Shown: piece after piece, positions 511 to 30,634 of the stretch
Layout of the letters: every line of letters starts with the position of its first letter
Numbering within the stretch: the first letter of the stretch is position 1
IMG/VR virus record: IMGVR_UViG_3300028805_000039
Location: 191,852-239,565 of that record
Direction: 5' to 3' (one strand)
Source: a virus
Taxonomy: Duplodnaviria; Heunggongvirae; Uroviricota; Caudoviricetes
Length of the DNA: 47,714 nt
The notes under the pieces: generated by a model
What the model was told of the DNA's origin: nothing
What the model saw: the letters and a program-made list of their open reading frames with translations, nothing else
Database searches by the model: none
Translations under genes and position numbers: made by a program

Positions 511-1077
511 ATGCCTGTAAATAAAGGATACTTAACAGCAAAAACAGATAAAGCTAGTGATGAAGTTTATACTCCTTCATATGCAATTTAGCCATTGGTA
601 AAATATATTGAAGACTATATGGCACGAGATAGTTTTGAATATTCAGAAGAATACCCATTGCGAATTTGGTGCCCATTTGATATGGCAAATAGTAAATATG
701 TTGAGGTTTTATCATAGATTCCAAAAGTAAAAGTAATATATAGTCATATTGATACTGGTGAAAATTTCTTTTATTATGAGCCAGAAGATTATGATATTAT
801 TATTTCTAATCCACCTTTTTCATGTAAAGATGATGTATTAAAAAGACTTTGGGAACTTAATAAACCTTATGCTATGTTATTACCAGTACCAACATTACAA
901 GGTCAGGCTCGTTTTCCTTATATGAAAGATATTCAGTATTTAGGATTTGATAAGCGTATTAATTATTATAAAGATATTTCTATGACTAAAACACAAGATG
1001 GAGTATCTTTTGGATCTTGTTATTTATGCCGTAAATTTCTTCCTAAAGATTTAATTATTGAAGAATTAAAGAAATAA
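511..1077 (+). CDS. phage Dam-type DNA N6-adenine methyltransferase; contains 2 in-frame TAG codons (589-591, 715-717)
   Basis: RBS AAGGAG + ATG 511; translation ..IISNPPFSCKDD.. (motif IV NPPF) after read-through of two TAGs; ends TAA 1075-1077; track fragment 874..1077 is in the same frame. Confidence 0.75.
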
Positions 1078-5200: not shown

Positions 5201-6553
5201 ATGGGGCTAGCTGAAGAAAATAAAATTGAAAAAAAGAGTATGGGAAAATATTATACTCCAGATGATGTAGCTAATATTATGGCTTAGTATTTATTAGAAT
5301 TACCTGGTGATAATATTTGTGATTTATGTTGTGGAACAGGAAATTTAACTTTTGCCGTATTAAATTAGATGACTGATGATGAAGCTAAACAATTTATACT
5401 TAATGGTCATTTATATTTATATGATATTGATAATATAGCTATAAAAATTTGTTTAGCTATACTAAAAAATAGATATGGAGATATCGTAGATAATATCCAT
5501 ATTATAAATACAGATTGTTTAAAATCTGATGTTAATTTTCCTGATAATGTTAAAATTATTTCAAATCCTCCATATGGCAAAAATACTGATTTAGTAAATA
5601 ATATTTATAATTGTGCAAAAACTACAAAAGAATTATATGTTGCTTTTATGGAAAAAGCTCTTTATGCTAAAGTTCCATTTGTATTTATAACTCCTCATAG
5701 TTTTTTAGGTGGGAATACTTTTAAAGAGTTACGTAAAGAATTATATGGTGGAAAAATTTTTGCTTTTGATAATGTTCCTGGAAATATTTTTAAAGGTAAA
5801 AAATTTGGTATTTTCAATTCAAATGAAGCAAACTCAACTAGAGCAGCAATTTCTATTTTAAATCCTAATTCTAAGGATATTTATGTTGCTCCTTTTATTA
5901 GATTTAAAACAGAAGAACGTTCAAAAATTTTAAATAAAGAATTTTTAGATACATTGCTACCTGAAAAAGCACAAAGTAATACTGGAAATATCTATTATAG
6001 AATTTAGGCTGGAACAGAAGAAATTATTACTAAATGGTTAGATTCTAAAAATAAAAAATTTAGTAGTTTATTAGTTTCTACTCCTAATGAATATAAAATT
6101 GATATTCCAAATACTTGTAGATATTTTACTACTGGGGCTAAAAAAACTTTATCTAGAAGTGGTAAATTAACTATTTATTGTAAAGATGAAGATAGTTTTT
6201 ATTTAGCATATGCATTTATTAATTCTTCTTTATGTTATTACTGGCATCGAATGTGTAATGGTGGTATTACATATCCAATTACACTTTTGAAGGATATGCC
6301 TATTTTTGGATCAGCAACACAAGAATTAAAAAATTATTGTAATAAACTAATTGAAAATGAAGAAAAATATATAGTTTTAAAGAAAAATGCTGGAGCATAT
6401 TAGGAAAATATTAAATTTCCTATGGAAATGCGTTTTGAATTAACAGATATTCTTTTAAAACAAATAAATTTATCTAATAATATATCTTTAAAAAAGGTAC
6501 ATAATAATAGTTGTTTAACTACAACAATAGATAATATTATAGATGAAGAATAA
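5201..6553 (+). CDS. gamma-class N6-adenine DNA methyltransferase + TRD (Type IIG/HsdM-like), in-frame TAG codons (5288-5290, 5366-5368, 6005-6007, 6401-6403); conserved sequence extends upstream to ~5087 in the same frame without a start codon
   Basis: Motifs GKYYTPDDVANIM (X), DLCCGTGNL (I), ISNPPYGK (IV); HsdM-like LGGLYE upstream of first ATG; ends TAA 6551-6553. Confidence 0.7.
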
Positions 6554-7275: not shown

Positions 7276-7432
7276 AGCCCCGTGGTGTAAAGGTAGCACA
7301 CTGGACTTGTCGATATGGTGTAATGGAAGCATAATTGAATGCCTCTTGTAATTGAGAGGAGGCGCTAGTTCGATTCTAGCTATCGGCTCCATGACTCCAA
7401 TGGTGTAGGTTCGAATCCTGCCGGGGCTGCCA
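7276..7432 (+). tRNA. tRNA-Gln (anticodon TTG) interrupted between nt 34 and 35 by an 83-nt insert (7309-7391)
   Basis: 5' half AGCCCCG-TG-GTGTAAAGGTAGCAC-A-CTGGA-CTT (7276-7308) and 3' half TGAC-TCCAA-TGGT-GTAGG-TTCGAAT-CCTGC-CGGGGCT-G-CCA (7392-7432) join to a canonical cloverleaf. Confidence 0.6.
7309..7391 (+). tRNA. tRNA-like gene nested inside the tRNA-Gln anticodon loop (identity unclear; possible 8-nt loop TGTAATTG with GTA)
   Basis: Acceptor GTCGATA/TATCGGC + T + CCA, perfect T-arm GCTAG-TTCGATT-CTAGC, D-arm GTG-TAATGGAAG-CAT. Confidence 0.45.
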
Positions 7433-8132: not shown

Positions 8133-8206
8133 ACTCCTATCGTATAATGGTAGTATAACTGGCTCTGAACCAGTGGGCCGAGGATCGAAACCTTGTGGGA
8201 GTGCCA
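8133..8206 (+). tRNA. tRNA-Gln (anticodon CTG)
   Basis: ACTCCTA/TGGGAGT, anticodon stem ACTGG/CCAGT loop CTCTGAA, G73+CCA. Confidence 0.7.
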
Positions 8207-9154: not shown

Positions 9155-9427
9155 ATGATTGATTTTAATAATTTAAAGTCTTATAAAGATTATTCTAAAT
9201 TAACTGGTGATGATATTCTTGAATTTATGCAAGAATAGACTAGAGATGATATTGAAGAATTTAAAGAGTTTTGTAAACCTCATACTGAAACTGATGAAAA
9301 TGGAATAACTCATGAATATTAGCCTAGATTTTTTGAAATTCGTAATTGGGTTTTAGATAAATATTATCCAGGTTTAACTACTCCAAAAAAGAATATAAGT
9401 TTTATAGAGCGTATTATGGATTTATAA
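9155..9427 (+). CDS. hypothetical protein (90 aa) with 2 in-frame TAG (9233-9235, 9323-9325)
   Basis: RBS GGAAA.., ATG 9155, TAA 9425-9427; codon-by-codon check. Confidence 0.5.
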
Positions 9428-9447: not shown

Positions 9448-9476
9448 TTGATTTTTTATAAAAAAAATGTTATAAT
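9448..9476 (+). promoter_or_regulatory. sigma70-like promoter copy 7
   Basis: TTGATT 9448-9453, TATAAT 9471-9476. Confidence 0.65.
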
Positions 9477-9527: not shown

Positions 9528-9872
9528 ATGAATTATCCCCTGAGTAAGTACCGTTTTTATGAAGCTGGTAATAAGACTATTGCTGTTAGTACTTATGCTG
9601 GTAGACCTGTTCGTGGTATTTCAATTTGCCATGAAAATGATGATTTTAGTCTTGAAACTGGTAAGCTACTCGCGGCAGCACGTTGTAATGAAAAGATTTC
9701 TGCCAAGCGAGTTGCTCGTGCTAATATGAAAGTACGACAGGCACAGGCTGATCTTGAGAAGGCCCAGAAGCACCTTGAAAATATGAAGGCTTATCTAAAT
9801 GATGCAGTTATTGCATATAATGATGCCGGAATTGAAACTGATAAGATTATTGAGTCTCTAAGGGCTAAGTGA
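9528..9872 (+). CDS. hypothetical protein
   Basis: ATG 9528 in frame with track ORF 9519..9872; RBS AAGGA. Confidence 0.5.
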   Translation: MNYPLSKYRFYEAGNKTIAVSTYAGRPVRGISICHENDDFSLETGKLLAAARCNEKISAKRVARANMKVRQAQADLEKAQKHLENMKAYLNDAVIAYNDAGIETDKIIESLRAK

Positions 9873-9878: not shown

Positions 9879-9907
9879 TGCGGATTGATAAAATTTTTCA
9901 ATCCGCA
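9879..9907 (+). terminator. hairpin (TGCGGATTG...CAATCCGCA) after CDS, no strong T-run
   Basis: 9-bp inverted repeat. Confidence 0.35.
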
Positions 9908-9915: not shown

Positions 9916-9990
9916 CCTCCCTTGGTGTAATGGTAGCACGGGTGGCTCTAACCCACCAGGCGTTGGTTCGATTCCGAACAGGGAGTGCCA
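9916..9990 (+). tRNA. suppressor tRNA, anticodon CTA (reads UAG); probably Gln-derived
   Basis: Anticodon stem GGTGG/CCACC with loop CTCTAAC (CTA at 9948-9950); D-arm GTG-TAATGGTAG-CAC; T-loop TTCGATT; 3' AGGGAGT-G-CCA resembles the phage tRNA-Gln(CTG) end; acceptor has a C1/T72 mismatch. Confidence 0.7.
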
Positions 9991-14336: not shown

Positions 14337-14831
14337 ATGTCAATTAGAGGAACTTTTGCTAGTATAGATGATTTAAAAATTATAGATAATCCAACAATAG
14401 ATGATGTTGCTATTGTTGGAAATTAGATGTATCAATATAAAGATGGATGGCAACCAATAGATACAACAGATAAAAAATTTGATATTGGATTAACTGAATA
14501 TTAGTTAAATCAAATGGTAGTTAAACAATTACCTGATTATACTAATTTATATAAAGCAAAAAAAATTATTAGAGATTTTACTCATAAACAAGGGCAAGTA
14601 TTTATGCTACTTTGTCATGAATTACGATATTATACAGTTTTATATTTAGAAAAAGAAGGTTATGATAAAATTGAAGATATTGTAATTGAGTGTTTAAAGG
14701 GTATGGGAACTATTAAAGATATTAGCAAAGAGGATGGAGCAATTGGATGTTGGGTTTTAACTCCAGAAGATGATGAAGCTCATATGTTCTTTTTGTTTAA
14801 TTATGATGGAGGATTTGAAAGATGCGTATAA
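14337..14831 (+). CDS. hypothetical protein (164 aa) with 2 in-frame TAG (14424-14426, 14502-14504)
   Basis: RBS AGGAG, ATG 14337; frame continuous with track ORF 14514..14831. Confidence 0.55.
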
Positions 14832-15091
14832 TGTATTGTTATATTGAACCATGGGTAGTCAATCAAAATATTTATTTAATGAATGATGGAATCGAACCTG
14901 TGGTTACAGATAAAATTAATTTAGAAGATTTACCTATTTATTTAACAAATGCTTATAAAGAAAAAAAATGTGATAAAATTATTCTTCATGGCAGTGTTAA
15001 AGGAATCACAAACCAATGCGCCGAAGATGTTATTAATTATGGACTAACAAATTATGGATTAAATAATATGAATATAGAGGTAATAAAATAA
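14822..15091 (+). CDS. hypothetical protein
   Basis: track ORF, overlapping start. Confidence 0.45.
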   Translation: MRIMYCYIEPWVVNQNIYLMNDGIEPVVTDKINLEDLPIYLTNAYKEKKCDKIILHGSVKGITNQCAEDVINYGLTNYGLNNMNIEVIK

Positions 15092-15336
15092 TGACAAAAT
15101 ATTTACTTAATGCAACAAACACTTATAGAGTTCATACTGTCGCAGAAGTTGAACAACTTCATGACTTACTTAAACATGATACAAATTTTGAACTTACTGC
15201 TTTTAGTTATACTACAAAAGATATTAAAGTTAAAGGTGAAGTTATTGACCAATATCAAGTTGTAAAAGCTAAAATTGTATTTACAAATGAAAAAGAACCA
15301 GAAGTTGAGTTCCAGGAGGAATATCATGAGGTTTGA
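15091..15336 (+). CDS. hypothetical protein
   Basis: track ORF. Confidence 0.45.
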   Translation: MTKYLLNATNTYRVHTVAEVEQLHDLLKHDTNFELTAFSYTTKDIKVKGEVIDQYQVVKAKIVFTNEKEPEVEFQEEYHEV

Positions 15337-15943
15337 AAGAGTATAGGCTTATCCTGATGCTATTCTTCCAACTCGTGGAACTGAAAAAGCTGGGGGTTAT
15401 GATTTATATGCCGCAGAAGATACTGTAATTCTTAGTTATCAAGAAATCATTGATGAACTTAAAATAGCTTATAATTACTCTCTTAGAAATAAGAATACTA
15501 TAGGAATTGATTGGGAATAGAACATTCTTCCACAAATTCTTAAAAATTGTTCCTTCGATTGTCGTCCAACATTAGTTCCTACTGGAGTAAAAATCTATTT
15601 AGATAAAGATAAAACCTTTGATATCCAAGCTCGTTCGTCTCTACCTAGAAAAAATTGGTTAATCGTGGCAAATGCTCCTGGACTTATTGATGCTGATTAT
15701 GTTGATAATCCAGATAATGAAGGACATATTTTTGTTCAATTAATTAATCTTGCTCCTTTCCCATTTACTATTAAAAAAGGTGAAAAATTTGCCCAAGGAG
15801 TTATTCGTCAATATTTTACTGTAGATAATGATAGCCATGGCGGCGAAAGAATGGGTGGCTTTGGGAGCACTGATAAAATTTTTACAAAAGAAGAATTTGC
15901 TCCTAATCTCTTTGGCAATGGGACTAGTTTTTCATATACTTAA
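15326..15943 (+). CDS. dut: dUTP diphosphatase (dUTPase) with 2 in-frame TAG (15344-15346, 15518-15520)
   Basis: RBS CAGGAGGA + ATG 15326; motifs PTRGTEKAGGYDL, RSSL, GLIDADY, RMGGFGSTD; frame continuous with track ORF 15665..15943. Confidence 0.8.
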
Positions 15944-15961
15944 ATAGGATATTGGAGTTTT

Positions 15962-16453
15962 ATGAGATTACTCGCATTAGACTAGGCTTCACGAACTACG
16001 GGTTGGGCAATCTTTGATGATGAAGAATTAGTTAATAGTGGAACTTTTACTTTGAAATCTGATGATATTGGAGAACGACTTGTCGATTATAAAAAGCATG
16101 TAGAAAAATTGATTTGTGATAATGATATAGAAGAAGTTGCTTTTGAAGATATTCAAATGTAGAATCAAATAAATAATGTTTAGACTTTTAAAGTTTTAGC
16201 AGAAATATTTGGGGTTACACAAGAATATTTAGTAGAACAAGGTCATTCATATCATGTAGTGAGTTCTAATACTTGGAAATCACAATTAAATATAAAAGGT
16301 AAGCAAAGAGCAGAATAGAAAAAAAATGCTTAGGCTTATGTGTTAGAACATTATAATAAAAAAGTATCTTAGGATGAATCTGATGCTATTTGTATTGGTT
16401 CATGTGTAGTATTACAAAATAAAAAGAAAAAGGCTGACTTCAATTGGGGTTGA
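15962..16453 (+). CDS. RuvC-family Holliday junction resolvase (phage type) with 6 in-frame TAG
   Basis: MRLLALD*ASRTTGWAIF.., ..EVAFEDIQ.., ..DESDAICIG..; TAG at 15983, 16160, 16181, 16316, 16331, 16370; ends TGA 16451-16453; verified codon by codon. Confidence 0.65.
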
Positions 16454-16531
16454 GGGCAGCCTTTTGTAATATTCTTATTAGTTTTTTCTTTTATTATGAA
16501 AGAAAGCTAAGAAAGGAAGAGAGAACCATAT

Positions 16532-17041
16532 ATGTTAGATTTTATAATTAAATATTGGCTTGAAGTTGCTTTTGGCTTAGTATGTGGGGCTGTCGCTTGG
16601 CTCGCTAAAAAATACATTACTATGTCAAAAACAGAAAAAGAAAATCATGAAACAGCAATTATCACAACCATTTAGGAAAAAATGGATGATTAGTATGATA
16701 AGACACAAGAATAGATGGATGTATGTTATAATCGTCTTAATAATAAAATTAGTGAATTTATCGAAGAATCACGAGAAGCTGATAAATAGACTATTAAAAC
16801 AATTGATAATATGCGAGGGGACGTTCTTATTATTGAAGGAGCATATTTTAGGAATGAATGCCGTAAATTGTTAAAAGAAGATCATATTATTACTAATGCT
16901 GAATTTAATATTATTACAGTATAGCATACAGCTTATAATAATTTAGGCGGAAATCATGAAGGCGATGCCTTGTATGAGATGGTAAAAGCTAAACATTAGA
17001 AACATTTAGTTGAAAAAGGCTCTAACGATGATGACTATTAA
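16532..17041 (+). CDS. membrane protein (N-terminal TM) with 7 in-frame TAG
   Basis: MLDFIIKYWLEVAFGLVCGAVAWLAKK..; ends TAA 17039-17041; verified codon by codon. Confidence 0.5.
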
Positions 17042-17044
17042 ATA

Positions 17045-17095
17045 AAAAAAAGAGGAAAATAAATTATTTATTTTCCTCTTTTTTTTATTTTTTTA
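17045..17095. terminator. bidirectional rho-independent terminator between convergent operons
   Basis: AAGAGGAAAATAAA-TTAT-TTATTTTCCTCTT flanked by A-run and T-run. Confidence 0.8.
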
Positions 17096-17394
17096 AATAC
17101 TCTATTAGTAACAGCTACAATTTCATCTCCATAAGTTGAAAATATATCTGCTAATAATTCTTCTTGGTCTAATGTTAAAATAACATTATAACTAAACATA
17201 GCCGCATGGGTCACTTCATGAGCTAATACTTTTCTGAACTTGACCTCATCTAGCCCATCTGCGATATAAATAGTTTTAGTAAAATTATCACAACAGCCAA
17301 GAGTAAAAGTATTTCTATTTGTTAATAGCATAGGATAAGTTGGCGGCACAATACGCACTCGCCAACTCATTCCATTAATGACAAATATAATCAT
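17068..17394 (-). CDS. putative Zn-metallopeptidase (HExxH)
   Basis: ..VLAHEVTHAAM.. Confidence 0.5.
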   Translation of the reverse strand: MIIFVINGMSWRVRIVPPTYPMLLTNRNTFTLGCCDNFTKTIYIADGLDEVKFRKVLAHEVTHAAMFSYNVILTLDQEELLADIFSTYGDEIVAVTNRVFKKIKKRGK

Positions 17395-18005
17395 TTCACT
17401 ATTTTTGCGGATAATTGCGCAAGCTTAGTTGATAATATTTGTTTTTCTTCTGGAGTTGCTTTTACGATCATTTCAGTTAAATCTTCCCCTAAATCTTTAA
17501 CATAATGATCCAAATCTTTCATTGATTTTTGATCATCGGCTCCAGAATTTTTTCCTTCCATATACATGCGACGAGAATAATAACTACGGCCATTATTAGT
17601 TATTTCACCATCATTATAATTTAAATGATCTTCACGCCAAGCCTTATCTCTCATTATATATGGGGCATATTCCATATAAGGAACATAATTACGCATATTC
17701 CCAGAATTAGTAAATTGCCCATCAGCATTTCTAGACTAACCATCATAATAATGCGTTCCACCTCCATTATTAGGATTTCCACTTTCCATATAATAAGAAA
17801 TATTCATAGGAGCCTAAGAATGTTCTTCTTTTTCTTTTGTTTTATCCATAGCTTCAATAATTGAGCAATAGTACATGGCTTCTTCTAAGTCTTTAATCAT
17901 GTCTATTACTTCTCCCATTTCTTTTGCATTAACCTTTTTTAAATCACCCATTTGGCCTTGAACAGAGCCAATTAAACATTGTTCAATATTTCTAAGTTGT
18001 TCCAT
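17391..18005 (-). CDS. hypothetical protein; track ORFs 17814..18005 and 17391..17696 joined by read-through of 2 TAG (plus-strand CTA at 17814-17816 and 17736-17738)
   Basis: Same frame, no TAA/TGA between; codon-by-codon check. Confidence 0.55.
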
Positions 18006-18006
18006 A

Positions 18007-18429
18007 TTAAGCCACCCTTACTACAATAAGATTTGCATTTTGAACATCTGCTGCGGCAACACCAGAGTTCTCTACACTAATTTGGGCGCAACATCCTTGA
18101 GCAACATCAATAAATAATGAACTACTTACACTATTAAATTCTTCTACTGCGCCAGGAGTAGAAATCATAGTGGAAGTACTAATTGGCTCTCCATTTACAG
18201 CAATAGCAAAAGAAATCGGGTCTGTCGCAGTACCATCTGCGGGAATCGCAACATTACCATTGAAATTCACATAAAATCTCGCACGGCATTGATTAGTGAG
18301 TCCGCGAAGACTCACTAATCCGCTACCTTCTCGATGTAATATTGATGGATTTCCACTTACGGCAGTGCTAGTAAAAACAACTACTCCATTGGGAGCAACA
18401 GTCTATAAAGCATTAGCTGTTATTTCCAT
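18007..18429 (-). CDS. hypothetical (structural?) protein, 1 in-frame TAG
   Basis: RBS AAGGAG-7nt-ATG (minus) at 18429; extends track ORF 18007..18315 upstream through TAG (plus 18403-18405). Confidence 0.5.
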
Positions 18430-18449
18430 ACTACATCTCCTTCCTTTAA

Positions 18450-19280
18450 TTAGCCTACTAAGTTATTTCCGCCACATCCGCAGCCACAGCCATAACCATA
18501 TGTTGGCCAGCCATTACTTACTGGGAATACTTGACCAGTATATGGATTAGCTGTTAAGTAAGCAGGATTTGCTACTGGACGAAGTTGAGAAATAAGATAA
18601 GCATTTTGTTCGGCTTGTGAAGCCTGTGTTTTAAGTGCATTATTCTCATTTTGTAATGCTGTAATTCTATCTTGTACTAAGAAATCAAGAATAGAACGGG
18701 TATTAGCATTATTATTTTCCATAATATCACGGACACCATCCATAACTGCCTGACGGTCAGCGCAGTTTTCAGTTGCGATATTATAGTTGAGTTGTGCTAA
18801 TGCACCAGAAATCATTTGGTCGGTTTGGCAATTAGCAAGTTGCTGTGCTGCCTACATACCTGATAACTGTTGTGTAAGAGCAAAAGTGTTTTGTAATCCA
18901 CCAACAGTTACGCCATTAATTGCATTAGTAATAGTATTAGTGTTCTGACAAGCCTATAAACCTAAATTGCTAATATCACTTTGAATTGCACTAGTACCGT
19001 TAGTTACAGCAGCAGTAGTAGTAGCAAAACCATTAAGGATACCAGTGTTAAGGTCATAGAACTTATCACTATTACTATCCATATTATAGATGTAAGGCAT
19101 AGCAGCATTTCCGCCACCATTATTGCCCCAGCCATTTCCCCATCCGCCAAAAGCGAATAAGAAGAGGAGGATTATCCACCAACCTCCGGCCCCGCCGAAA
19201 AAACCATCATTGCCGTATCCACCATTACCGGTAGCAGCAGCAATGTCCGCTAAAGAGTATCCATTTTCATTGTTAAACAT
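18450..19280 (-). CDS. Gly/Asn-rich membrane protein (TM WWIILLFLFAFGGW; C-term GCGCGCGG), 2 in-frame TAG
   Basis: track ORFs 18954..19280 and 18450..18815 are in one frame, joined through TAG at plus 18954-18956 and 18852-18854; RBS AAAGGAGG. Confidence 0.55.
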
Positions 19281-19311
19281 ATGCGTTTAACCTCCTTTAA
19301 TAATATATTAT

Positions 19312-19554
19312 TTACAGCCCTAAACTTTGTTTAAAAGCAGTAAATTCTTTATCAAAGTCTATCCCACGCTAAGCACAGATATTACGAGCGATTTTTTCTA
19401 TATCTGCGGTATTACCTTGCTGAGCTAGACTAAGGAGGTTCTATCCCATAGGGGAAGACTATGCTTGTTGCTATAAATACTCCATCATCATTTGTTGAGG
19501 GTTCTGTTTATTCCTCACCATCTACATCATCATTTGTATTGGGTTACTATTCAA
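19312..19554 (-). CDS. small Gln-rich protein, 6 in-frame TAG
   Basis: ..MMMEYL*QQA*SSPMG*NLLSLAQQGNTADIEKIARNICA*RGIDFDKEFTAFKQSLGL; TTG/ATG start after RBS GGAGG; TAA stop. Confidence 0.4.
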
Positions 19555-19956
19555 TTAAAAAACCTCCTTAAAACCTTGGGGATTTTCTTGTGCCGGAGAG
19601 GTTTGTGGGACAGTAACCTTATTCTAATTTAATAACTCTGCAACTTTGCCCATTGCCTATTCAAATTCTTGACGAGTGACAAATTCTCCAGATACTGGTT
19701 CTGTTGGCAGAGGTTTCAATTCATACATATTTAATTGGGCTATCCCATCAAGCCCTACGGTCTTTGTATAAATTTTTTTATTTGCAATATCTGGAAAATA
19801 AAAAATTGAACCATCAAAATCAATAGAGGTAGCTTTTACTTCTTCTAATGAAGAAACAGGATGCCCTTTTAATCCACCGAACTATGGAATTGGTGGACTA
19901 ACTATACGCTATTGCGGCATTATAGAGCTAGGCTATTGCTGGTAATAATTATACAT
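19555..19956 (-). CDS. hypothetical protein, 6 in-frame TAG
   Basis: MYNYYQQ*PSSIMPQ*RIVSPPIP*FGGLKGHPVSS...; only frame free of TAA/TGA across 19558-19956; ends TAA (plus 19555-19557). Confidence 0.45.
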
Positions 19957-20165
19957 ATCATCCCTTCTTTTTATAAATTTTTTTGGTATCGCTCTTACCA
20001 ATTTTATGTAAAATTTATGGTAAATAATTTTAAAACTTTTGCCAAAAAAAATTATTAAAAATTTTTTAAGTAAATGCGGCATTGAGGGCAAGAATAAATA
20101 ATATACTTTCCTTTTTTTTCTAAAATAAATAGAGATATAAAAAAGTAAAAAAGGAGATAGAAATA

Positions 20166-20585
20166 ATGAAACCAGAAACACAAGCTTTATTACAACAAAT
20201 TTGGCAATTATGTATAATTCCATTATTAACAGTTCTTACTGGATATATTATTAAATTAATTAATAAACAATCTGATAAAATGTAGAGAGAAACTGATAAT
20301 GAATTATATAAAAAATATATCGCTTTATTAGATGACACAATTGTTAAATGTGTAATTGCTACAAACCAAACTTATGTAGATGCTCTTAAAGATCAAAATG
20401 CTTTTGATGTAAATGCTCAAAAAGAAGCCTTTAAACGTACATATGATTCAGTTATGGCTATTCTTAGTTTAGAAGCAAAGAATTATTTAGAACATGCGGT
20501 TGGTGATTTAAATACTTATATTACAAAAGCTATTGAAACATAGGTAAAAGTTAATAAAATTTCAACAATTACTATTACTGAATAA
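20166..20585 (+). CDS. small membrane protein, holin-like (LL-H-type?), 2 in-frame TAG (20283, 20541)
   Basis: RBS AAAGGAG, N-terminal TM LCIIPLLTVLTGYIIKLI; verified codon by codon. Confidence 0.4.
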
Positions 20586-20739
20586 TAAAAAAGAAGATTT
20601 TAAAAAACTAATATAAAACTTTTTTAAATTATAATTAAATATATTAAAATGGACAATTATATATAATTATTAATTAAAAAAAAATAAAATTATATGTAAT
20701 CATAAAATTTTAGTATACCATTGGAGGAAGTGACATTAT

Positions 20740-21294
20740 ATGGCGAAAAGAGTTAGTGAATTACCGATAACAACACATACTAATTTAACACCTAGTGCTT
20801 GTCTTTTAGTTAATGAACCTACTAATAATGGATTTATTACTAAATAGATGACTATAGCAGAATTAAACAATGAATTAATTGAAAATTATCATTATCTTAC
20901 TTCTAATAATGATAATTCTAATTTAACCAATGAGAGTAAAATTAATACACTTATTGGTAATGATACTAACAAGTCAGTACGTACTATTGCTAATGAAGAA
21001 TTAGTTACTTAGTTAATCCCAGCCAATGCTAGTGCAGCACTTGATACACTTCAAGAAATTGCGGCTTGGATTCAAGCTCATCCTAATGATGTAGCACAAA
21101 TAAATTCTACTATTGCTGCTTTACAGCAAAAATTAACTTTAGGAGTAAATAGTAATAATAATGAATATTCTACTGTTAAGGATTATGTAGAAGCTACTAT
21201 TGCTAATGAAAATAGTAATTTACAACCATTAACAAAAGAAGATATTCATGAAGCATTTTATGGCTTTAAAGAAATTGAGATAAATACTATTTGA
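20740..21294 (+). CDS. tail fiber-like protein (N-terminal conserved region), 2 in-frame TAG
   Basis: RBS GGAGGAAG; ..ITK*MTIAELNNELIENY.., ..DTLQEIAAWIQAHPNDV.. Confidence 0.5.
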
Positions 21295-21331
21295 ACTTAA
21301 ATAAAAAAAATAAAGAAAGGAATTAATAATT

Positions 21332-21955
21332 ATGACTTTTTTAGATTTTTCTGGGGTATAGGCCCTTGCTGAAATGTTAACTAATAGTTTTTTAGTTATG
21401 GAAAAAGAAAATAATAAATATGGAGATTTAAATCTTGTTAAATTTACTCATGACACAAATAGTTAGTAGTATATCGTAAATGTTTATCCTGTTGATGCTG
21501 CAGAACCTAGTAATGTTCCACTCCCAGAAATTATAAGCGAACATGGCAATTGGAGTTCTCCTGGATATTTTACAGATAATGTAACATTAAATAACATACC
21601 AAATACATTATGGGTTATTGATAAAACAGAGTCATCAAGTTTTTCCAATGGTGATAGTGTAATTAGAACATTCCAAAATTGTCATTTAAATGATGATCCA
21701 GAAACTCTTAATACGTTAATTAATAATTTATCAGAAAAGAATTTACACTTAACTATTTATGATTTAACTTTTGCAACTGGTAATAAACTTTTAATATATA
21801 AGAATCTTACAAAAGCATTAGTATTATTTAAAAGAAGTAGTATTGTTGATAGTGGATATAATTCTGCTTATGTGGTTAATGAAATTGATTTAAATACCAA
21901 TTCTATTAATAAATATTATACTAATTATAGTAATGATAGTGGAGGTGGATCGTGA
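21332..21955 (+). CDS. hypothetical tail-associated protein, 3 in-frame TAG (incl. TAG-TAG pair 21467-21472)
   Basis: ATG 21332, TGA 21953-21955. Confidence 0.45.
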
Positions 21956-22038
21956 GAAATTTAATAATAACTTCTTTATTTAAGAATAAAAAAATATTTT
22001 TATTTTAACATATACTTTAAAAGGAATGTGAAATAATT

Positions 22039-22532
22039 ATGGTAAAAAAATTAGTGAATTACCCGTAACTACTCATTCTAGTTTAACACCTAGCGCTTGT
22101 CTTTTAGTTAATGAACCAAGTGGTACTTGATATATTACTAAACAAATGACTATTGCTGAATTAAATAATGAATTAATTGAAAATTATAGTTATATTACTA
22201 CTAATACAATTTCAAATTATGTATTATCATCTAGCTGTGGAAGTAGTAATGATAATGTGGATAATAATTTATTCCATAGTGCAGGTTATTTAGAAACAAT
22301 GGATACAACAGGTGAATGGTGGCAAACAGAATACCCAATCGTATTTTTTGATACAATAACACAAAAACTTTTCTGTGTTGATAAATATAATCATCAAGCT
22401 ATATTAATGGATACTGCAGTAGATGGTATTACTATAGATGGAACAGATTATAGTGGAGCTAAACTTGTTAATCTCTTTAGTTATGAGGATAATAGCACTA
22501 CTTATACTGCTTCAAACGCCTCTAATACTTAA
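22039..22532 (+). pseudogene. degenerate paralog of tail fiber gene 20740 (1-nt deletion near start + in-frame TGA); intact ORF only from ATG 22146
   Basis: Nucleotide-level similarity to 20740-20860 but frame broken; track ORF 22146..22532. Confidence 0.4.
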
Positions 22533-22545
22533 TAATTAATATAAT

Positions 22546-22582
22546 AAAGGATAAAGAGTTTTTTACTCTTTATCCTTTTTAT
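22546..22582 (+). terminator. rho-independent terminator
   Basis: GGATAAAGAG-TTTTT-TACTCTTTATCC + TTTTT. Confidence 0.8.
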
Positions 22583-22670
22583 TTATTTGGCCATTAGTAA
22601 ATAAAGATAAAATTAAAAAATGTATATGTATTAGAAAAGAAAATTTTTATTCAAGAGGTGAATAAAAAAT

Positions 22671-23600
22671 ATGCCAATTACAATTAATTCTTTTTATTAC
22701 AAAAATTCAAGTGGTAGTTATATAAATTGTTTGCCAGGATTTCCTTCTGTCGCAACTAAACCATTAACAGCATATGTAGCTGGCATAAATAATGAAAATG
22801 TGACAATCGCATTTTCTGGAAATGGATACTATAGCTAGAGTATTCAAGTATCAATTCCTTATAATATTTATTCAGGACCTAGTATTATCTATCCATCTCC
22901 TTCGACAGAAAATATTCCTGCTTATACATATTTTCCATATTCTGTTACAATCCCATCAGAACCTAATTTAAAACCTGAAAATATTGCTCCAGGAGTAACA
23001 ATATTAGGAGTAACAGGGGCCGAAGTAGAAGATAGTAGTGATTATGAAAAAAGATTTATAGAATAGGATAAATTAAATAGTACTATTTTTGAAACTTTAG
23101 GTTATTCAAAAGCTGATATAGTAGCTAAGGATGGAATGTAGTATACTACATATTATACTTTATCTTCTTCAATATTAAATGATAGTGATATTACACGAGT
23201 TGGGGCTTATACTTTTTATAGTAATGCTACTATTACATCAATAAATTATCCATAGTGTAATTATATTGGAAATGGGGGCTTCTATAATTGTAAAAATCTT
23301 ACTACAATTAATTTTCCAATGTGCAATATTATTGAAGTTAATGCTTTTGCAAATTGTTCTAATCTTATAACAGTTAGTATTCCATAGTGTCATTATATTC
23401 AAGCGGGAGCCTTTAATAATTGTATAAATTTAACAACTGTTTATTTGAATCAAACATCTTCTGTTTGTAAACTACTAAATTCACAAGTATTTAATAATTG
23501 TAGTAATCTTATATCAATATATGTCCCATTAAGTTTAATAGATAATTATAAATAGGATAATACTTGGCAATATTTTTCTAATAAAATTATAGGAATATAA
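22671..23600 (+). CDS. BspA-type leucine-rich-repeat protein (putative receptor-binding/tail fiber), in-frame TAGs
   Basis: C-terminal 22-aa repeats ..P*CNYIGNGGFYNCKNLTTINFPMCNIIEVNAF..; RBS GAGGTG. Confidence 0.55.
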
Positions 23601-23614
23601 AGGAGATATATCAT

Positions 23615-25096
23615 ATGAATTTAATATTCAATAATTTATTTGTTAAGCAATCTCAAAGTTATAATAGTTTACCAGCTATTGCTGTATTAAAACAATTATC
23701 TTCAATTCCTTCTTCTTATTATTCTTATACAATAAATAATGATATAATTAATATAAATTATATAAATTATTTATCAAATAACATTTCTACTCATACAGTA
23801 TCCTTTCCCTTATTAAATAATAATAATATAAATTTATCTATTGCGTCTTATTATATTAATAGTAATATTTTAATTCAAAATAATATTTCATTAAATCAAT
23901 CAAATTTAATTCCAGAAAATATTAAGAAAAATATTTCTCTTTTTAATATTATCGGGAATTTTATACCTAGTAATTACCGTCAATTTAGATTATTACCATC
24001 TATTTCTACTTATAATAATGAAAATATTTCATCAATTAGAGACATGTGTTTTTTAAGTTGGTTAGATTTATCTATAATTGATTTGCCATAGTGTAGTTAT
24101 ATTGGAAATAGTGCTTTTGCTGGTTGTTATAATCTTACTACAGTAAATTTTCCATAGTGTAGTTATATTGGAAGTTATGCTTTTTATAAATGTAATAGTC
24201 TTACTTCAATAAGTTTTCCATAGTGTAGTTATATTGGAAGTTATGCTTTTTGTAAATGTAATAGTCTTACTTCAATAAGTTTTCCATAGTGTAGTTATAT
24301 TGGAAGTCATGCTTTTTTTGATTGTCTTAGTCTTACTACAGTAAATTTTCCAATATGTAGTTATATTGGAAATGGTGCTTTTGCTGGTTGCTCTAATCTT
24401 ACTTCAATAAGTTTTCCAATATGTAGTTATATTGGAAATTATGCTTTTTAGAGTTGTATTAGACTTACAACAGTAGATTTTCCATTGTGTCCTTATATTG
24501 GAAGTTATGCTTTTTGCCGTTGTTCTAATCTTACTTCTGCAAATTTTCCATATTGTAGTTATATTGAAAGTTATGCTTTTTATAGTTGTATTAGACTTAC
24601 TTCAATAAATTTTCCAGTATGTAGTTATATTGAAAGTTATGCTTTTTATTGGTGTATAAATCTTACTACAGTAGATTTTCCATAGTGTAATTATATTGGA
24701 GATTATGCTTTTGGCCATTGTCCTAGTCTTACTTCAATAAATTTTCCAGTATGTAGTTATATTGGAGAGGGTGCTTTTAATTATTGTCCTAGTCTTACTT
24801 CAATAAGTTTTCCATAGTGTAGTTATATTGGAAGTCATGCTTTTTAGAATTGTCGTAATCTTACTACAGTAGATTTTCCATAGTGTAGTTATATTGGAAG
24901 TAGTGCTTTTTAGAATTGTTCTAGTCTTACTACTATTTATTTAAACTAGACATCACAAATATGTTCATTATATAATAGTGATGTATTTTCTAGTTGTAAT
25001 AAACTTCAATCAATTTATGTCCCACAAAGTTTAGTCGAAGCTTATCAAACCGATGCTCGTTGGAAATCATTATCAACTAAAATTATAGGTGTATAA
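23615..25096 (+). CDS. BspA-type LRR repeat protein, 13 x 66-nt repeats, ~12 in-frame TAG
   Basis: track ORFs 23615..24091 and 24485..24685 in same frame; repeat FP[*IVLY]CSYIGSYAF[*YCF].C.SLTSI.; ends TAA 25094-25096. Confidence 0.6.
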
Positions 25097-25176
25097 AAAA
25101 AATAAAAAAAATAGAATTATTATATTAATTAAATAATATAATAATTCTATTTTTAATTTCAACAAAAAAAATAAAA

Positions 25177-26712
25177 ATGAAGGATGTGAATATATTGAGT
25201 TATCAAATAATAATCCCTTCAGATGTTGCGCCATTGCGCGCCCCAGTTATTCCTACTTTAAGAATTATAGATGAAGATACAGCGGAAATATATGTAAAAT
25301 ATCCTTATTCTACATATGTATCAGGCAATATAAATATAGATTTAGATATTGGTAATACTTCAATAAAAGTAGATAGCGTTAAAATAAATAAATTAATTAG
25401 TTTTTTAGAAGGTAATTCTGAATTTGATTATAGTATAATATAGTAGTATAATAAAATAGGAATAGGATTATATAATAAATTTAATTCAAGAATTGCAAAT
25501 TTTCCATAGTGTACTTGTATTGGAAATAGTACTTTTTAGAATTGTTCTAGTCTTACTTCTGCAAATTTTCCATTATGTAATTATATTGGAAGTTATGCTT
25601 TTTAGAATTGTCTTAGTCTTACTTCAATAAATTTCCCATAGTGTAGTTATATTGGAAGTAGTGCTTTTTAGAATTGTCGTAATCTTACTACAGTAGATTT
25701 TCCATAGTGTAGTTATATTGGAAGTTTGGCTTTTGAGGATTGTGATAATCTTACTTCAATAAATTTCCCATAGTGTAGTCATATTGAAAGTTTGGCTTTT
25801 TATGATTGTGATAGTCTTACTTCAATAAGTTTTCCATAGTGTAGTTATATTGGAAATCGTGCTTTTTATGATTGTCGTAATCTTACTACAGTAGATTTTC
25901 CATAGTGTAGTTATATTGAAAGTAATGCTTTTTGCTATTGTCCTAGTCTTACTTCAATAAGTTTTCCATAGTGTAATTATATTGGAAGTTATACTTTTTA
26001 TAGTTGTATTAGACTTACTTCAATAAATTTTCCATAGTGTAATTATATTGGAGAGAGTGCTTTTTATTATTGTTCTAATCTTACTTCAATAAGTTTTCCA
26101 ATATGTAGTTATATTGGAAGTTATGCTTTTTAGAGTTGCTCTAATCTTACTTCAATAAATTTTCCATAGTGTAGTTATATTGGAGAGAGTGCTTTTTATA
26201 ATTGTCGTAATCTTACTTCAATAAATTTTTCATTATGTAGTTATATCGAGAATAGTGCTTTTTATCGTTGCTCTAATCTTACTTCAATAAATTTTCCAGT
26301 ATGTAGTTATATTGGAAGTTATGCTTTTTAGAGTTGTTATAGTCTTATTTCAGTAGATTTTCCATAGTGTAGTTATATTGGAGAGAGTGCTTTTTAGAGT
26401 TGTTATAGTCTTACTTCAATAAATTTCCCATAGTGTAGTTATATTGGAAGTTATGCTTTTTAGAGTTGCTCTAATCTTACTTCAATAAATTTCCCATAGT
26501 GTAGTTATATTGGAAGTCGTGCTTTTATGTCGTGTTCTCGTCTTACTACTATTTATTTAAACTAGACATCACAAGTATGTTCATTATATAATAGTTATGT
26601 ATTTTCTAGTTGTAATAAACTTCAATCAATTTATGTTCCACAAAGTTTAGTCGAAGCATATAGAAACCATAGCAGATGGCGTTATTTTTCTAATAAAATA
26701 ATAGGGATATAA
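25177..26712 (+). CDS. BspA-type LRR repeat protein with tandem TAG-TAG (25441-25446) and ~16 further in-frame TAG
   Basis: track ORF 25177..25443 continues in frame through the repeats to TAA 26710-26712. Confidence 0.55.
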
Positions 26713-26714
26713 AT

Positions 26715-26825
26715 AAAATAAAATAATAGGGATATAAATAAATAAAATAATTTTTAAATTATTATTTTATTTATTTATATCCCTATTATTTTATTTTATT
26801 TATATCCCTATTATTTTATTAGAAA
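26715..26825. repeat. perfect palindrome / bidirectional terminator between convergent LRR genes; centre of a ~1.4-kb diverged inverted duplication
   Basis: ATAAAATAATAGGGATATAAATAAATAAAATAATTTTTAAATTATTATTTTATTTATTTATATCCCTATTATTTTAT. Confidence 0.7.
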
Positions 26826-28572: not shown

Positions 28573-29552
28573 TCCTCTCCTAATTTTTCAATATGATTTA
28601 ACCATTCATTAATAGTAATAGTTTCCATACCCATGCCTTCCATAACAGAACGCTATCTAATCTAATTAGAAATATACATTTTATCATTAGTAGGAATAGT
28701 ATTCCATAAACCTTTAAATTCTTTATAATATTTTGAAAAACGAATTTCTGTACTATCACGATACTCTTTATTTTCTTGATTAATCCATTCTGGTTTATTC
28801 ATAGTATAATAAGCATCAAAAATCATCATAACACTATAAAACATCGCCTTATCTTTAAGTCCACGATTTAAAAATTCATGTACTAAACATTCATTAGAAT
28901 CAAGCATATTCTTATAGGTTTTTAAAATATATTTAGGATCATGACGGCAAACACTTTCATCACGCCATTTCCAAAGATAAAATGGTATAGGACAATATTT
29001 TACATTAGTACTTAAATTCTAACATAAAATATTAAAATAACTATCTTCATGAATTGTTAAATTATTATTCCATTTAATATTTTTATCAAGTAAATAATGT
29101 CTACTATGTACTTTACCATGCACAAAAGTACTATCCATTTCATGATTTACATAAACAATTTCTTTGTTTTCAGGATTACGACTTTCTTCAATAAACATTG
29201 ATACAAGACTATCAAATCCACCATTTTTAATTTCCTAAAAAATTATAAAGAATGCACAAACAGTATAAAACATATCATCCGCATCACAAAACATAACATA
29301 ATCTGCTGTTGCATGGTTTAAACAAGCATTTCTAGTAGCACTAACGCCATGATGTTCTTCTTTATAATATTTAACTTCAAATGGATAAGAATTTAATAAA
29401 TCTTCTGATAAAAATACATCTGAACCATCATTACAAATTATTACCCCAACATCTTTAAAATCAACACTTTGCTAAATGGCAATACTATCTAATAAATTTT
29501 TTATAACATCATCAGTTTCTTTATATTGAGGTACTAAAATCTATAATTTCAT
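28569..29552 (-). CDS. family 2 glycosyltransferase (GT-A fold), 6 in-frame TAG
   Basis: ..GVIICNDGSD.., ..MFCDADDMFY..; extends track ORF 28662..28907 both ways; codon-by-codon check; RBS AAAGGAG. Confidence 0.65.
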
Positions 29553-30614: not shown

Positions 30615-30634
30615 AAATATTAGCTCCTTTCTTA

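What the first reader, a model, noticed from the sequence alone, without database searches (positions are those of the whole stretch)
9916..9990. TAG is a sense codon, and a CUA-anticodon suppressor tRNA is encoded
In-frame TAGs sit inside conserved enzymes (Dam MTase NPPF gene at 589 and 715; gamma-MTase 15 codons upstream of DLCCGTGNL; dUTPase; RuvC x6; GT2 x6) and in dozens of structural genes. Those genes still end at TAA/TGA. A tRNA with anticodon-loop CTCTAAC (CTA) on a perfect GGTGG/CCACC stem lies at 9916-9990, downstream of a terminator-like hairpin. Its D-loop and 3' end resemble the phage's own tRNA-Gln(CUG). Sequence context (YYQQ*P, L*QQA*, tandem TAG-TAG) favours Gln, i.e. a code-15-like recoding, but the amino acid is inference. 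TAG is dense in late/structural genes (LRR genes >10 each). It is also present in some early genes: both DNA methyltransferases, dUTPase, the RuvC-like resolvase, 9155..9427 and 14337..14831. It is absent from others: the AAA+ ATPase, Ro60-like/vWA protein, Pnk-like kinase, metallophosphoesterases, RNA ligase and Thg1-like polymerase. This pattern is compatible with suppressor-dependent control of late expression, though that link is not demonstrated here.
Basis: partly seen in the sequence, partly recalled or inferred. Interest (0 to 1): 0.9.

Follow-up and report, generated by a model that had tools for sequence, protein, structure and literature searches.

The report
Phage reads TAG as glutamine

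Summary
ARAGORN and Rfam both find a tRNA with anticodon CUA at 9916-9990. Its cloverleaf is backed by compensatory changes in four orthologues.

In-frame TAGs lie inside Pfam or PHROG matches for RuvC, dUTPase, two DNA methyltransferases, a GT2 glycosyltransferase and a holin. All 55 complete genes modelled end in TAA or TGA.

The amino acid is no longer only inferred. At the DNA level, window TAGs align with CAA or CAG in relatives: 35 of 37 non-TAG codons in close relatives, and 41 of 41 at the conserved RuvC D-Q-[AS]-S-R site. A cultured standard-code Enterococcus phage has Gln at 5 of the 6 RuvC positions. The tRNA is most similar to the phage's own tRNA-Gln genes.

TAG makes up 48% of Gln-class codons in 14337-31297 and 0 of 98 in 31732-47714. 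Relatives keep the same partition.

This matches published "code 15" phages (crAss-like, Lak, the Borges et al. gem clades), so it is a new member of a known kind. Late-gene control remains an inference.

The most unusual thing seen in passing: the tRNA-Gln(UUG) gene at 7276-7432 is split in its anticodon loop by an 83-nt tRNA-like insert. The insert is precisely absent from near-identical genomes.

The parts
9916..9990 (+). Amber-suppressor tRNA, anticodon CUA (loop CUCUAAC). It has a C1.U72 mismatch, G73, encoded CCA and a bulged A in the T stem.
   Evidence: Covariation across 4 orthologues: 10 of 21 pairs have compensatory changes, and 1.72 is never paired. The sequence is 100% identical in independent assemblies L090, L091 and L080.
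8133..8206 (+). Phage tRNA-Gln(CUG), with A1-U72, G73 and CCA. It shares its D arm and 3' end with the suppressor.
7276..7432 (+). tRNA-Gln(UUG) gene. The exons are 7276-7308 and 7392-7432. An 83-nt tRNA-like insert (7309-7391) interrupts it between U34 and U35.
9448..9476 (+). Sigma-70-like promoter (TTGATT-17-TATAAT with an upstream TG). It lies ahead of the TAG-free gene 9528-9872, which is followed by the suppressor tRNA.
   Evidence: consensus match only.
9528..9872 (+). TAG-free gene immediately upstream of the suppressor tRNA; probably co-transcribed with it.
   Evidence: Orthologues have 0 TAG in 657 aligned codons.
9879..9907 (.). Hairpin TGCGGATTG / CAATCCGCA between that gene and the tRNA.
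   Evidence: Not called as an intrinsic terminator.
14337..31297 (.). TAG-rich gene block on both strands: 104 in-frame TAGs against 114 CAA+CAG. It includes dUTPase, RuvC, a holin, four LRR-repeat genes (22671-23600, 23615-25096, 25177-26712, 26800-28413) and GT2.
15962..16453 (+). RuvC-like resolvase with 6 in-frame TAGs. This is the main test gene for the meaning of TAG.
20166..20585 (+). Holin (phrog_13712, E 2e-29) with 2 in-frame TAGs.
511..1077 (+). Small DNA methyltransferase (NPPF motif; phrog_799) with 2 in-frame TAGs.
5201..6553 (+). N6 adenine DNA methyltransferase (PF02384/PF07669) with 4 in-frame TAGs.
28569..29552 (-). GT2 glycosyltransferase with 6 in-frame TAGs.
31732..47714 (+). 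TAG-free block: 0 TAG against 98 CAA+CAG. It holds an AAA_33 kinase, metallophosphoesterases, HNH, an isochorismatase-like gene, RNA ligase, Band_7, Thg1-like and RlaP.

Best explanation
The window comes from a large (relatives' contigs 130-240 kb), AT-rich (29.8% GC), uncultivated phage, probably of Clostridia/Firmicutes. The phage uses genetic code 15, in which TAG encodes glutamine and only TAA and TGA terminate.

Shown:
- TAG is a sense codon inside conserved genes.
- TAG is interchangeable with CAA/CAG in relatives.
- The phage encodes a structurally sound tRNA(CUA) of the tRNA-Gln family, inside a tRNA array.
- TAG codons are concentrated in one gene block, which includes the holin, and are absent from another. 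Relatives keep this partition.

Inferred:
- The tRNA is transcribed by host RNA polymerase together with a TAG-free upstream gene.
- It is charged with Gln by the host's Gln-charging pathway. Features that favour this are U35, G73, G10 and an unpaired 1.72.
- It competes with host RF1 at UAG.
- Because TAG-bearing genes cannot be translated in full until the suppressor has accumulated, recoding delays or insulates the expression of late, lysis and host-interaction genes. This is the model of Borges et al.
For: The tRNA is real and under structural selection.

It is closest to tRNA-Gln. Identity is 0.72 to Gln(UUG), 0.65 to Gln(CUG) and at most 0.59 to every other tRNA in the window.

Pfam and PHROG matches run across the TAGs.

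DNA-level tests of the meaning of TAG:
- Relatives L001-L003 have CAA at 5 of the 6 RuvC TAG sites.
- At the D-Q-[AS]-S-R column, 41 of 41 sense codons are CAA/CAG and 7 relatives have TAG.
- The cultured standard-code Enterococcus phage VRE9_3 has Q at 5 of 6 sites.
- Across 9 genes, in HSPs of at least 70% identity, window TAG aligns with TAG 58 times, CAA 34, CAG 1 and other codons 2. In the other direction, relatives' TAGs align with window Q at 24 of 36 sites.

ORF coverage of 14.3-31.5 kb rises from 0.37 to 0.91 when TAG is read as sense. No modelled gene ends in TAG.

Partition of TAG among Gln-class codons: 104/218 in 14337-31297 against 0/98 in 31732-47714, Fisher p = 5e-22. Orthologues of the TAG-free genes in 9528-14144 have 0 TAG in about 5,500 aligned codons.

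A holin is recoded. A promoter-like site lies upstream of the TAG-free gene plus tRNA.

All eight close relatives examined carry CUA tRNAs: L001, L004, L078, L080, L081, L083, L086, L087.

The phenomenon and the model are published.
Against: No expression, aminoacylation or peptide data exist for this phage.

The host is unknown. If it lacks GlnRS, as many Firmicutes do, charging would have to go through non-discriminating GluRS plus GatCAB, for which a CUA anticodon is not an obvious substrate.

The acceptor stem has C2-G71 and U3-A70, not the G2-C71/G3-C70 of the E. coli GlnRS identity set. The phage's own tRNA-Gln(CUG) has the same pairs.

TAG also occurs in genes usually counted as early or middle (two MTases, dUTPase). 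The early/late split is therefore not clean, and most TAG-rich genes have no known function.

No RF2 or aaRS gene lies in the window.

The protein database used had translated TAG as Q already ('translates_to_query: no'). Those alignments alone would be circular, so only the DNA-level counts are relied on.
Confidence: 0.9

Rival explanations
1. The recoding and the suppressor are real, but the uneven distribution of TAG has no regulatory role. It would reflect history: C-to-T drift turned CAG into TAG in genes that could tolerate it once the suppressor existed. The TAG-free block would be a more recently acquired, or more strongly expressed, module with different codon usage.
For: TAG-bearing genes have almost lost CAG: the CAG share of CAA+CAG is 0.10, against 0.45 in TAG-free genes. 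They also have lower GC (0.287 against 0.316) and fewer G-ending Lys and Leu codons. TAG also occurs in the MTases and the dUTPase.
Against: The partition is conserved gene by gene in relatives at 45-95% identity. The tRNA array and its neighbouring genes are TAG-free. The holin is recoded, as in other recoded clades. The absence of TAG among 98 Gln-class codons is very unlikely under a uniform process.
Confidence: 0.3
2. TAG is decoded as an amino acid other than glutamine, for example pyrrolysine (ARAGORN's label), Tyr, Lys or Glu.
For: ARAGORN prints 'tRNA-Pyl'. In distant homologues (below 45% identity) E and K are also common opposite TAG. In the LRR repeats TAG alternates with V/I/L/Y/R, and no CAA/CAG is seen at those two repeat positions.
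Against: In close relatives, 35 of 37 non-TAG codons opposite window TAGs are CAA/CAG. At the invariant RuvC site it is 41 of 41. The cloverleaf is canonical, with a 5-bp anticodon stem, G18G19 and a UUCGAUU T loop, which is unlike tRNA-Pyl. The tRNA clusters with tRNA-Gln. The paralogue 22671-23600 has LNQTS where three LRR paralogues have LN-TAG-TS.
Confidence: 0.03
3. TAG is still a stop codon. On this view the TAG-bearing genes are pseudogenes, assembly errors or genes made by low-level readthrough, and the CUA tRNA is incidental.
For: None specific. The only point is that no protein data exist.
Against: 115 in-frame TAGs fall in 27 genes that keep their reading frame and their domain matches. 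Relatives carry TAGs at the same and at other Gln positions. Independent assemblies give the identical sequence. No gene needs TAG as its terminator.
Confidence: 0.01
4. The host itself reads TAG as sense, so the phage merely matches its host and the tRNA only supplements it.
For: The host is unknown. Borges et al. describe code-25 phages that match code-25 hosts.
Against: A 16-kb block and the tRNA-region genes avoid TAG completely, which is expected only if they must be translated in a standard-code cell. [quoted passage not shown] From recall, no bacterial lineage with TAG = Gln is known.
Confidence: 0.02

Closest known systems
Alternatively coded (code 15, TAG to Gln) gut phages: crAss-like, Lak, and the Jade/Sapphire/Agate-type large Firmicutes phage clades of Borges et al. 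(bioRxiv 10.1101/2021.08.26.457843); proteomic validation in Peters et al. 2022 (PMC9523058)
   Same: Low GC. In-frame TAG aligning to Gln. A phage-encoded tRNA(CUA). TAG concentrated in structural, lysis and late modules, with variable use in DNA-metabolism genes. Standard-code-compatible genes around the code-change machinery. Sister lineages that use TGA to Trp or the standard code.
   Different: Clade membership could not be tested, because no terminase lies in the window and no reference genomes were available. No RF2 or aaRS is in the window. The window has no match in the INPHARED phage collection at the nucleotide level. The best protein hits are 38-41% identical, to Bacillus and Enterococcus phages.
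Phassvirus group (phAss-1, 136 kb; Babkin et al. 2023, PMC10607447)
   Same: A human-gut phage of more than 130 kb with TAG in many ORFs and several suppressor tRNA genes.
   Different: Relationship not tested. The phAss-1 sequence was not compared, and nothing in the GenBank phage set matches the window at the nucleotide level.
E. coli supE (glnV44) and phage T4 tRNA-Gln-derived nonsense suppressors (from recall)
   Same: A tRNA-Gln-family body carrying a CUA anticodon. It is expected to be charged by the Gln pathway because U35, G73, G10 and a weak or open 1-72 pair remain.
   Different: Here the suppressor is a fixed, conserved wild-type gene serving a whole recoded gene set, not a laboratory mutation. 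It has a pyrimidine.U72 mismatch at 1.72 and a bulged A in the T stem, both conserved in orthologues.
tRNA-Pyl (ARAGORN's label)
   Same: Only the CUA anticodon.
   Different: The cloverleaf is canonical, and no Pyl synthesis or charging genes are seen. See the membership test.

Membership tests
Code-15 (TAG to Gln) alternatively coded phage | In-frame TAG inside conserved protein-coding genes that keep frame and domain architecture | tested here: met
Code-15 (TAG to Gln) alternatively coded phage | TAG positions align with Gln (CAA/CAG) in homologues, checked on DNA rather than on pre-translated proteins | tested here: met
Code-15 (TAG to Gln) alternatively coded phage | TAG not used as a terminator; genes end in TAA or TGA | tested here: met
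   38 TAA, 17 TGA and 0 TAG among 55 complete modelled genes. This follows partly from how the ORFs were called, but no TAG-free gene has a TAG before its TAA/TGA.
Code-15 (TAG to Gln) alternatively coded phage | Phage-encoded suppressor tRNA with anticodon CUA | tested here: met
   Orthologues occur in all eight close relatives examined.
Code-15 (TAG to Gln) alternatively coded phage | Recoded codons enriched in late, structural and lysis genes; code-change machinery and early genes compatible with the standard code | tested here: inconclusive
   The holin, the LRR/fibre-like genes and GT2 are recoded. The tRNA region and the RNA-repair block are TAG-free. However, the temporal class of the genes is not known, and the MTases and dUTPase also carry TAG.
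Code-15 (TAG to Gln) alternatively coded phage | Gln actually incorporated at UAG (peptide evidence) | not testable with these tools
   Needs proteomics. This has been done for crAss-like phages in PMC9523058.
tRNA-Gln-derived amber suppressor | Greatest sequence similarity to tRNA-Gln isoacceptors of the same genome | tested here: met
   0.72 to UUG, 0.65 to CUG, at most 0.59 to the others. Alignments.
tRNA-Gln-derived amber suppressor | GlnRS identity elements as defined in E. coli (recalled): weak or open 1-72, G73, G10, U35, A37, G2-C71, G3-C70 | tested here: inconclusive
   Present: open 1.72 (C.U), G73, G10, U35 and A37. Absent: G2-C71 and G3-C70; the tRNA has C2-G71 and U3-A70, as does the phage tRNA-Gln(CUG). 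The host enzyme is unknown.
tRNA-Gln-derived amber suppressor | Aminoacylation with Gln | not testable with these tools
   Inferred only from the codon equivalence.
tRNA-Pyl | Non-canonical fold (recalled): 6-bp anticodon stem, 3-nt variable loop, small D loop without G18G19, no T-psi-C motif, 1 nt between the acceptor and D stems | tested here: not met
   5-bp anticodon stem, AAUGGUA D loop with GG, UUCGAUU T loop, U8-G9 linker, 4-nt variable loop.
tRNA-Pyl | Accompanying pylS/pylBCD genes | tested here: not met
   None among the Pfam-scanned ORFs of the window. The rest of the genome was not seen.

The most novel reading that the evidence does not exclude
The switch to reading TAG as Gln might be gated by RNA processing rather than only by transcription of the tRNA.

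Two observations prompt this. First, the suppressor and its orthologues always have an unpaired pyrimidine opposite U72, whereas the phage's two ordinary tRNA-Gln have A1-U72. Second, in this genome the tRNA-Gln(UUG) gene is split in its anticodon loop by a mobile 83-nt tRNA-like insert.

The same phage carries, in its TAG-free block, a Thg1-like 3'-5' polymerase, an RNA ligase, a kinase, phosphoesterases and RlaP. These enzymes might rebuild the suppressor's 5' end (to A1-U72) and re-join the tRNA-Gln(UUG) halves. Gln decoding, including UAG, would then depend on phage RNA-repair enzymes.

Nothing here tests this. The mismatch may simply favour GlnRS, and the split gene may be dead.
Probability: 0.05. 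Interest if true: 0.85.

Novelty: new member of a known kind. Interest (0 to 1): 0.3.

Why it matters
For annotation, the practical point is immediate. Under table 11, more than half of the 14-31 kb block is lost (ORF coverage 0.37 against 0.91), and the holin, resolvase, LRR host-interaction proteins and glycosyltransferase are all truncated. The genome has to be called with table 15.

Biologically, it adds a well-documented member of a large, probably Clostridia-infecting lineage to the phages that change the genetic code of their host cell. Three details are useful for anyone working on the mechanism:
- The suppressor is a tRNA-Gln derivative with a conserved open 1.72 pair and a T-stem bulge.
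- TAG has replaced CAG, rather than CAA, as the second Gln codon in recoded genes.
- The TAG-free/TAG-rich gene partition is conserved across relatives.

None of this changes the current picture of phage stop-codon recoding.

Tried and rejected
- Megablast of 20 kb against GenBank phages found no match.
- PDB sequence search with RuvC found nothing useful. PDB dUTPase alignments cover the TAG sites only in variable N-terminal or insert regions, so they say nothing about the residue.
- The big-database RuvC alignment shows Q at all six sites. I rejected it as evidence on its own once one search showed that those proteins had been translated with TAG = Q. It was replaced by DNA-level counts.
- ARAGORN's 'tRNA-Pyl' label was rejected on structure.
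- The ARAGORN model with U73 and a U7.C66 mismatch was rejected in favour of the Rfam register (position 1 = C9916, G73-CCA). The reasons are the identical GGGAGUGCCA 3' end in tRNA-Gln(CUG) and the 49-65 G-C/C-G covariation.
- The minimum-free-energy fold of the tRNA alone is not better than shuffles (z = 0.04). This is uninformative for tRNAs.
- An exact-pattern scan of IMG/VR for the suppressor found only 4 hits.
- Exact-pattern scans found nothing for the 83-nt insert (IMG/VR; JGI metagenomes) or for the tRNA-like minihelix at 10074-10148.
- Rfam gives only sub-threshold tmRNA hits for 9997-10250.
- DUF2828 against PDB shows no Ro60 match by sequence, so 'Ro60-like' is unverified.
- The insert is not homologous to the relatives' tRNA-Leu(UAA).
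- The genome-contig scan gave a single Clostridiales MAG contig, which is only a weak host hint.

Full report
**The tRNA**

ARAGORN finds 11 tRNA genes on the + strand between 1361 and 12030. One of them has anticodon CUA, at 9917-9986. Rfam's tRNA model matches 9917-9985 at 43 bits against a gathering score of 29.

The cmscan alignment places 9917 at tRNA position 2. Read this way:
- C1 lies opposite U72 (unpaired), followed by G73 and an encoded CCA.
- The D arm is GUGU-AAUGGUA-GCAC.
- The anticodon stem is GGUGG/CCACC and the loop is CUCUAAC.
- The T loop is UUCGAUU, with one bulged A in the T stem.

ARAGORN's own register (U73, with a U7.C66 mismatch) is less likely, for two reasons. The 3' end GGGAGUGCCA is identical to that of the phage tRNA-Gln(CUG) at 8133-8206. 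And pair 49-65 switches from G-C to C-G in an orthologue under the Rfam register.

On four distinct orthologues (window, L004, L081, L078), 92.9% of cells form standard pairs. Ten of 21 pairs show changes on both sides, and no shuffle or slid control comes close. Position 1.72 is unpaired in all four. So this is a tRNA under structural selection, not a chance hit.

The same 75 nt occur at 100% identity in independent assemblies (L080, L090, L091). 'tRNA-Pyl' is only ARAGORN's default name for CUA. The canonical cloverleaf does not fit tRNA-Pyl.

**TAG as a sense codon**

With only TAA and TGA as stops, the window resolves into a compact gene map. ORFs of at least 100 codons cover 14300-31500 as follows:
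- standard code: 37%
- TAG read as sense: 91%
- TGA read as sense: 54%

In 31600-47714 the three figures are 71%, 74% and 76%.

Family matches run across the TAGs:
- RuvC (profile positions 2-145 of 148, six TAGs), N6_Mtase, GT2 and dUTPase
- a holin, phrog_13712
- the small NPPF methyltransferase, phrog_799

All 55 complete modelled genes end in TAA (38) or TGA (17).

**Which amino acid**

A search of the large protein database with RuvC, TAG written as X, returned more than 1,200 homologues with Q at all six positions. But the encoding contigs do not translate to those proteins under table 11. The database had therefore already read TAG as Q, which makes that result circular. I went to the DNA instead.

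- In L001-L003 (75% identical), five of the six sites are CAA and one is TAG.
- Across 50 relatives, the D-Q-[AS]-S-R column holds CAA 33 times, CAG 8 and TAG 7, with no other sense codon. Gln codons are the plurality at four of the other five sites.
- Enterococcus phage VRE9_3 is cultured and annotated under the standard code. It is only 38% identical, yet it has Q at five of the six sites.
- Over nine genes, in HSPs of at least 70% identity, window TAGs face TAG 58 times, CAA 34, CAG 1 and anything else twice.
- At 45-70% identity, 308 of 420 non-TAG codons are CAA/CAG.
- In the other direction, relatives' TAGs face window Q at 24 of 36 sites.
- Within the window, the LRR paralogue 22671-23600 has LNQTS where three paralogues have LN-TAG-TS.

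The tRNA itself is most similar to tRNA-Gln(UUG) (0.72) and tRNA-Gln(CUG) (0.65). Its similarity to every other tRNA in the window is at most 0.59. TAG = Gln is therefore well supported without proteomics.

**Distribution of TAG**

| Region | TAG | CAA+CAG |
|---|---|---|
| 511-14144 | 11 | 58 |
| 14337-31297 | 104 | 114 |
| 31732-47714 | 0 | 98 |

The second region against the third gives Fisher p = 5e-22.

The TAG-free set includes:
- the AAA+ ATPase
- DUF2828/DUF7788
- an AAA_33 kinase
- two metallophosphoesterases
- HNH
- an isochorismatase-like gene
- RNA ligase
- Band_7
- Thg1-like
- RlaP

The genes next to the tRNAs are TAG-free as well.

The partition is inherited. Orthologues of the TAG-free genes in 9528-14144 have no TAG in about 5,500 aligned codons. 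Orthologues of the TAG-bearing genes carry 2-27 TAG per 1,000 codons.

A near-consensus sigma-70-like promoter at 9448-9476 precedes the TAG-free gene 9528-9872. The tRNA follows that gene after a hairpin that the scan does not score as a terminator. This fits early, host-polymerase-driven production of the suppressor.

In TAG-bearing genes CAG has almost vanished: 12 CAG against 106 CAA, compared with 69 against 83 in TAG-free genes, p = 1e-10. TAG seems to have taken over the place of CAG.

**What it is**

The phenomenon is published:
- TAG-to-Gln recoding with phage suppressor tRNAs.
- Clades of 150-210-kb Firmicutes phages that mix codes 11, 15 and 4.
- The proposal that recoding times late and lysis gene expression (Borges et al.).

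Proteomic proof exists for crAss-like phages (PMC9523058), and there is a further 136-kb group (PMC10607447).

The relatives found here fit that picture:
- Contigs run from 130 to 240 kb.
- All eight close relatives examined have CUA tRNAs, two of them a tandem pair of different types.
- Some more distant relatives carry UCA tRNAs, with in-frame stops opposite Trp.

The best cultured matches are Bacillus and Enterococcus phages at 38-41% protein identity. One relative sits in a Clostridiales MAG. The host is therefore probably a Firmicute. The window has no nucleotide match in the GenBank phage set.

My verdict is a new member of a known kind.

**Open points**

Charging by a host GlnRS is inferred. 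The favourable features are an open 1.72 pair, G73, G10 and U35, taken from the E. coli identity rules as I recall them. The tRNA lacks G2-C71 and G3-C70. Many Firmicutes lack GlnRS altogether.

The regulatory reading is plausible but unproven. The MTases and the dUTPase also contain TAG.

**Seen in passing**

The tRNA-Gln(UUG) gene at 7276-7432 is interrupted between U34 and U35 by an 83-nt element (7309-7391). The element has its own acceptor stem, D arm, T arm and CCA, but a non-canonical anticodon region. Removing it restores the loop CUUUGAC.

- The same arrangement is in an independent contig, L093, at 99.9% identity.
- The insert is precisely absent from L094 (98-99% identity) and L097, and from the more distant L078, L080, L081 and L086.
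- L095 carries a derivative with a 33-nt deletion and a compensatory change in the insert's hairpin.

I could not find the element anywhere else. Whether it is removed at the RNA level, perhaps by the phage's RNA ligase and repair enzymes, or has killed the gene, is unknown.

Directly downstream of the suppressor, a strong promoter-like site (9996-10024) precedes a GC-rich, apparently non-coding stretch at 10031-10290. That stretch contains a tRNA-Ala/tmRNA-like acceptor-T minihelix (GGGGCUA...UAGCUCCACCA, with G3.U70). Rfam gives only sub-threshold tmRNA hits for it.

Noticed in passing
window 7276-7432 (insert 7309-7391); L093:3574-3730; L094:1486-1559; L095:93-216; L097:116-189: The tRNA-Gln(UUG) gene is split between U34 and U35 by an 83-nt tRNA-like element. 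The element has acceptor stem GUCGAUA/UAUCGGC, U73 and CCA, D and T arms, and an odd hairpin CCUCU-UGUAAUUG-AGAGG in place of an anticodon arm. It is a precise presence/absence polymorphism among 98-99.9% identical genomes. One relative (L095) has a 33-nt-deleted derivative with a compensatory stem change. The element was not found elsewhere.
   Followed up: partly
window 9996-10290: A near-consensus sigma-70-like promoter (TTGACT-17-TATAAT, 9996-10024) lies just after the suppressor tRNA. It is followed by a GC-rich stretch with a tRNA-Ala/tmRNA-like minihelix at 10074-10148 (GGGGCUA...UAGCUCCACCA, G3.U70, A73, CCA). Only weak tmRNA hits were found (E 0.1-0.4). The first half is present only in L080, L090 and L091. 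The part at 10182-10255 is also in L078, L083, L086 and L087.
   Followed up: partly
window 11273-11344; L078:4557-4628; L080:5066-5137; L086:6184-6255: A tRNA-like gene with an 8-nt anticodon loop (CUUGUUAA; ARAGORN reports the 4-base anticodon 'tgtt') and three non-standard pairs in the acceptor stem. It is nevertheless 96-100% conserved in relatives.
   Followed up: partly
window 7150-7219: A 70-nt tRNA-like remnant directly after tRNA-Pro, with T arm AUCGG-UUCAAGU-CCGAU and ending in GCCA. No tool calls it as a tRNA. It is conserved in L078, L080, L086, L093 and L094.
   Followed up: no
window 12645-14144 and 31732-47714: A TAG-free RNA-repair-type gene set: DUF2828/DUF7788, AAA_33 kinase, two metallophosphoesterases, RNA ligase (PF09414 + PF21189), Band_7, Thg1-like and RlaP. 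The same genes lie next to RuvC in a relative's contig. 'Ro60-like' for DUF2828 could not be confirmed by sequence against PDB.
   Followed up: partly
window 1562-1637: tRNA-His has G-1 encoded (G1562 opposite C73), as in bacteria. The Thg1-like enzyme is therefore not needed for G-1 addition if RNase P leaves it in place. The gene was called by ARAGORN but did not reach Rfam's gathering score.
   Followed up: yes
whole window, gene sets: In TAG-bearing genes CAG is nearly gone: the CAG share of CAA+CAG is 0.10, against 0.45 in TAG-free genes. TAG thus appears to have replaced CAG specifically. The DUF2828 gene uses 17 CAG and 0 CAA.
   Followed up: partly
L028, L036, L040, L041 (UCA tRNAs); RuvC homologues in many loci: More distant relatives carry tRNA(UCA). 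They have 85 in-frame TGA in RuvC alignments, and in-frame stops face window Trp 47 times. This indicates TGA-to-Trp recoding in sister lineages.
   Followed up: partly
L004:1230-1379; L081:1254-1401: Two different CUA suppressor tRNAs sit in tandem, 4 nt apart. The second type has G2-C71, G3-C70, an unpaired 1.72 (U.C in L004, U.U in L081) and G73. The window has only the first type.
   Followed up: partly
window 23615-28413: Three LRR-repeat paralogues carry TAG at two fixed positions of the 22-residue repeat (FP-TAG-C and AF-TAG-NC). No CAA/CAG occurs at these positions in any repeat.
   Followed up: no
window 9879-9907 and 10039-10047: The motif TGCGGATTG occurs exactly three times, all around the suppressor tRNA: the two arms of the hairpin, and once at the start of the GC-rich stretch. 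Read on the minus strand, the hairpin is followed by a T-run.
   Followed up: partly
L083:7988-9565; L084:829-2406: In two close relatives the dUTPase gene is called as a 121-aa fragment, followed by a 372-aa HTH-domain gene before RuvC. This suggests an insertion into or next to dUTPase. The window's dUTPase also has an extra segment of about 45 residues (50-94) compared with PDB dUTPases.
   Followed up: no
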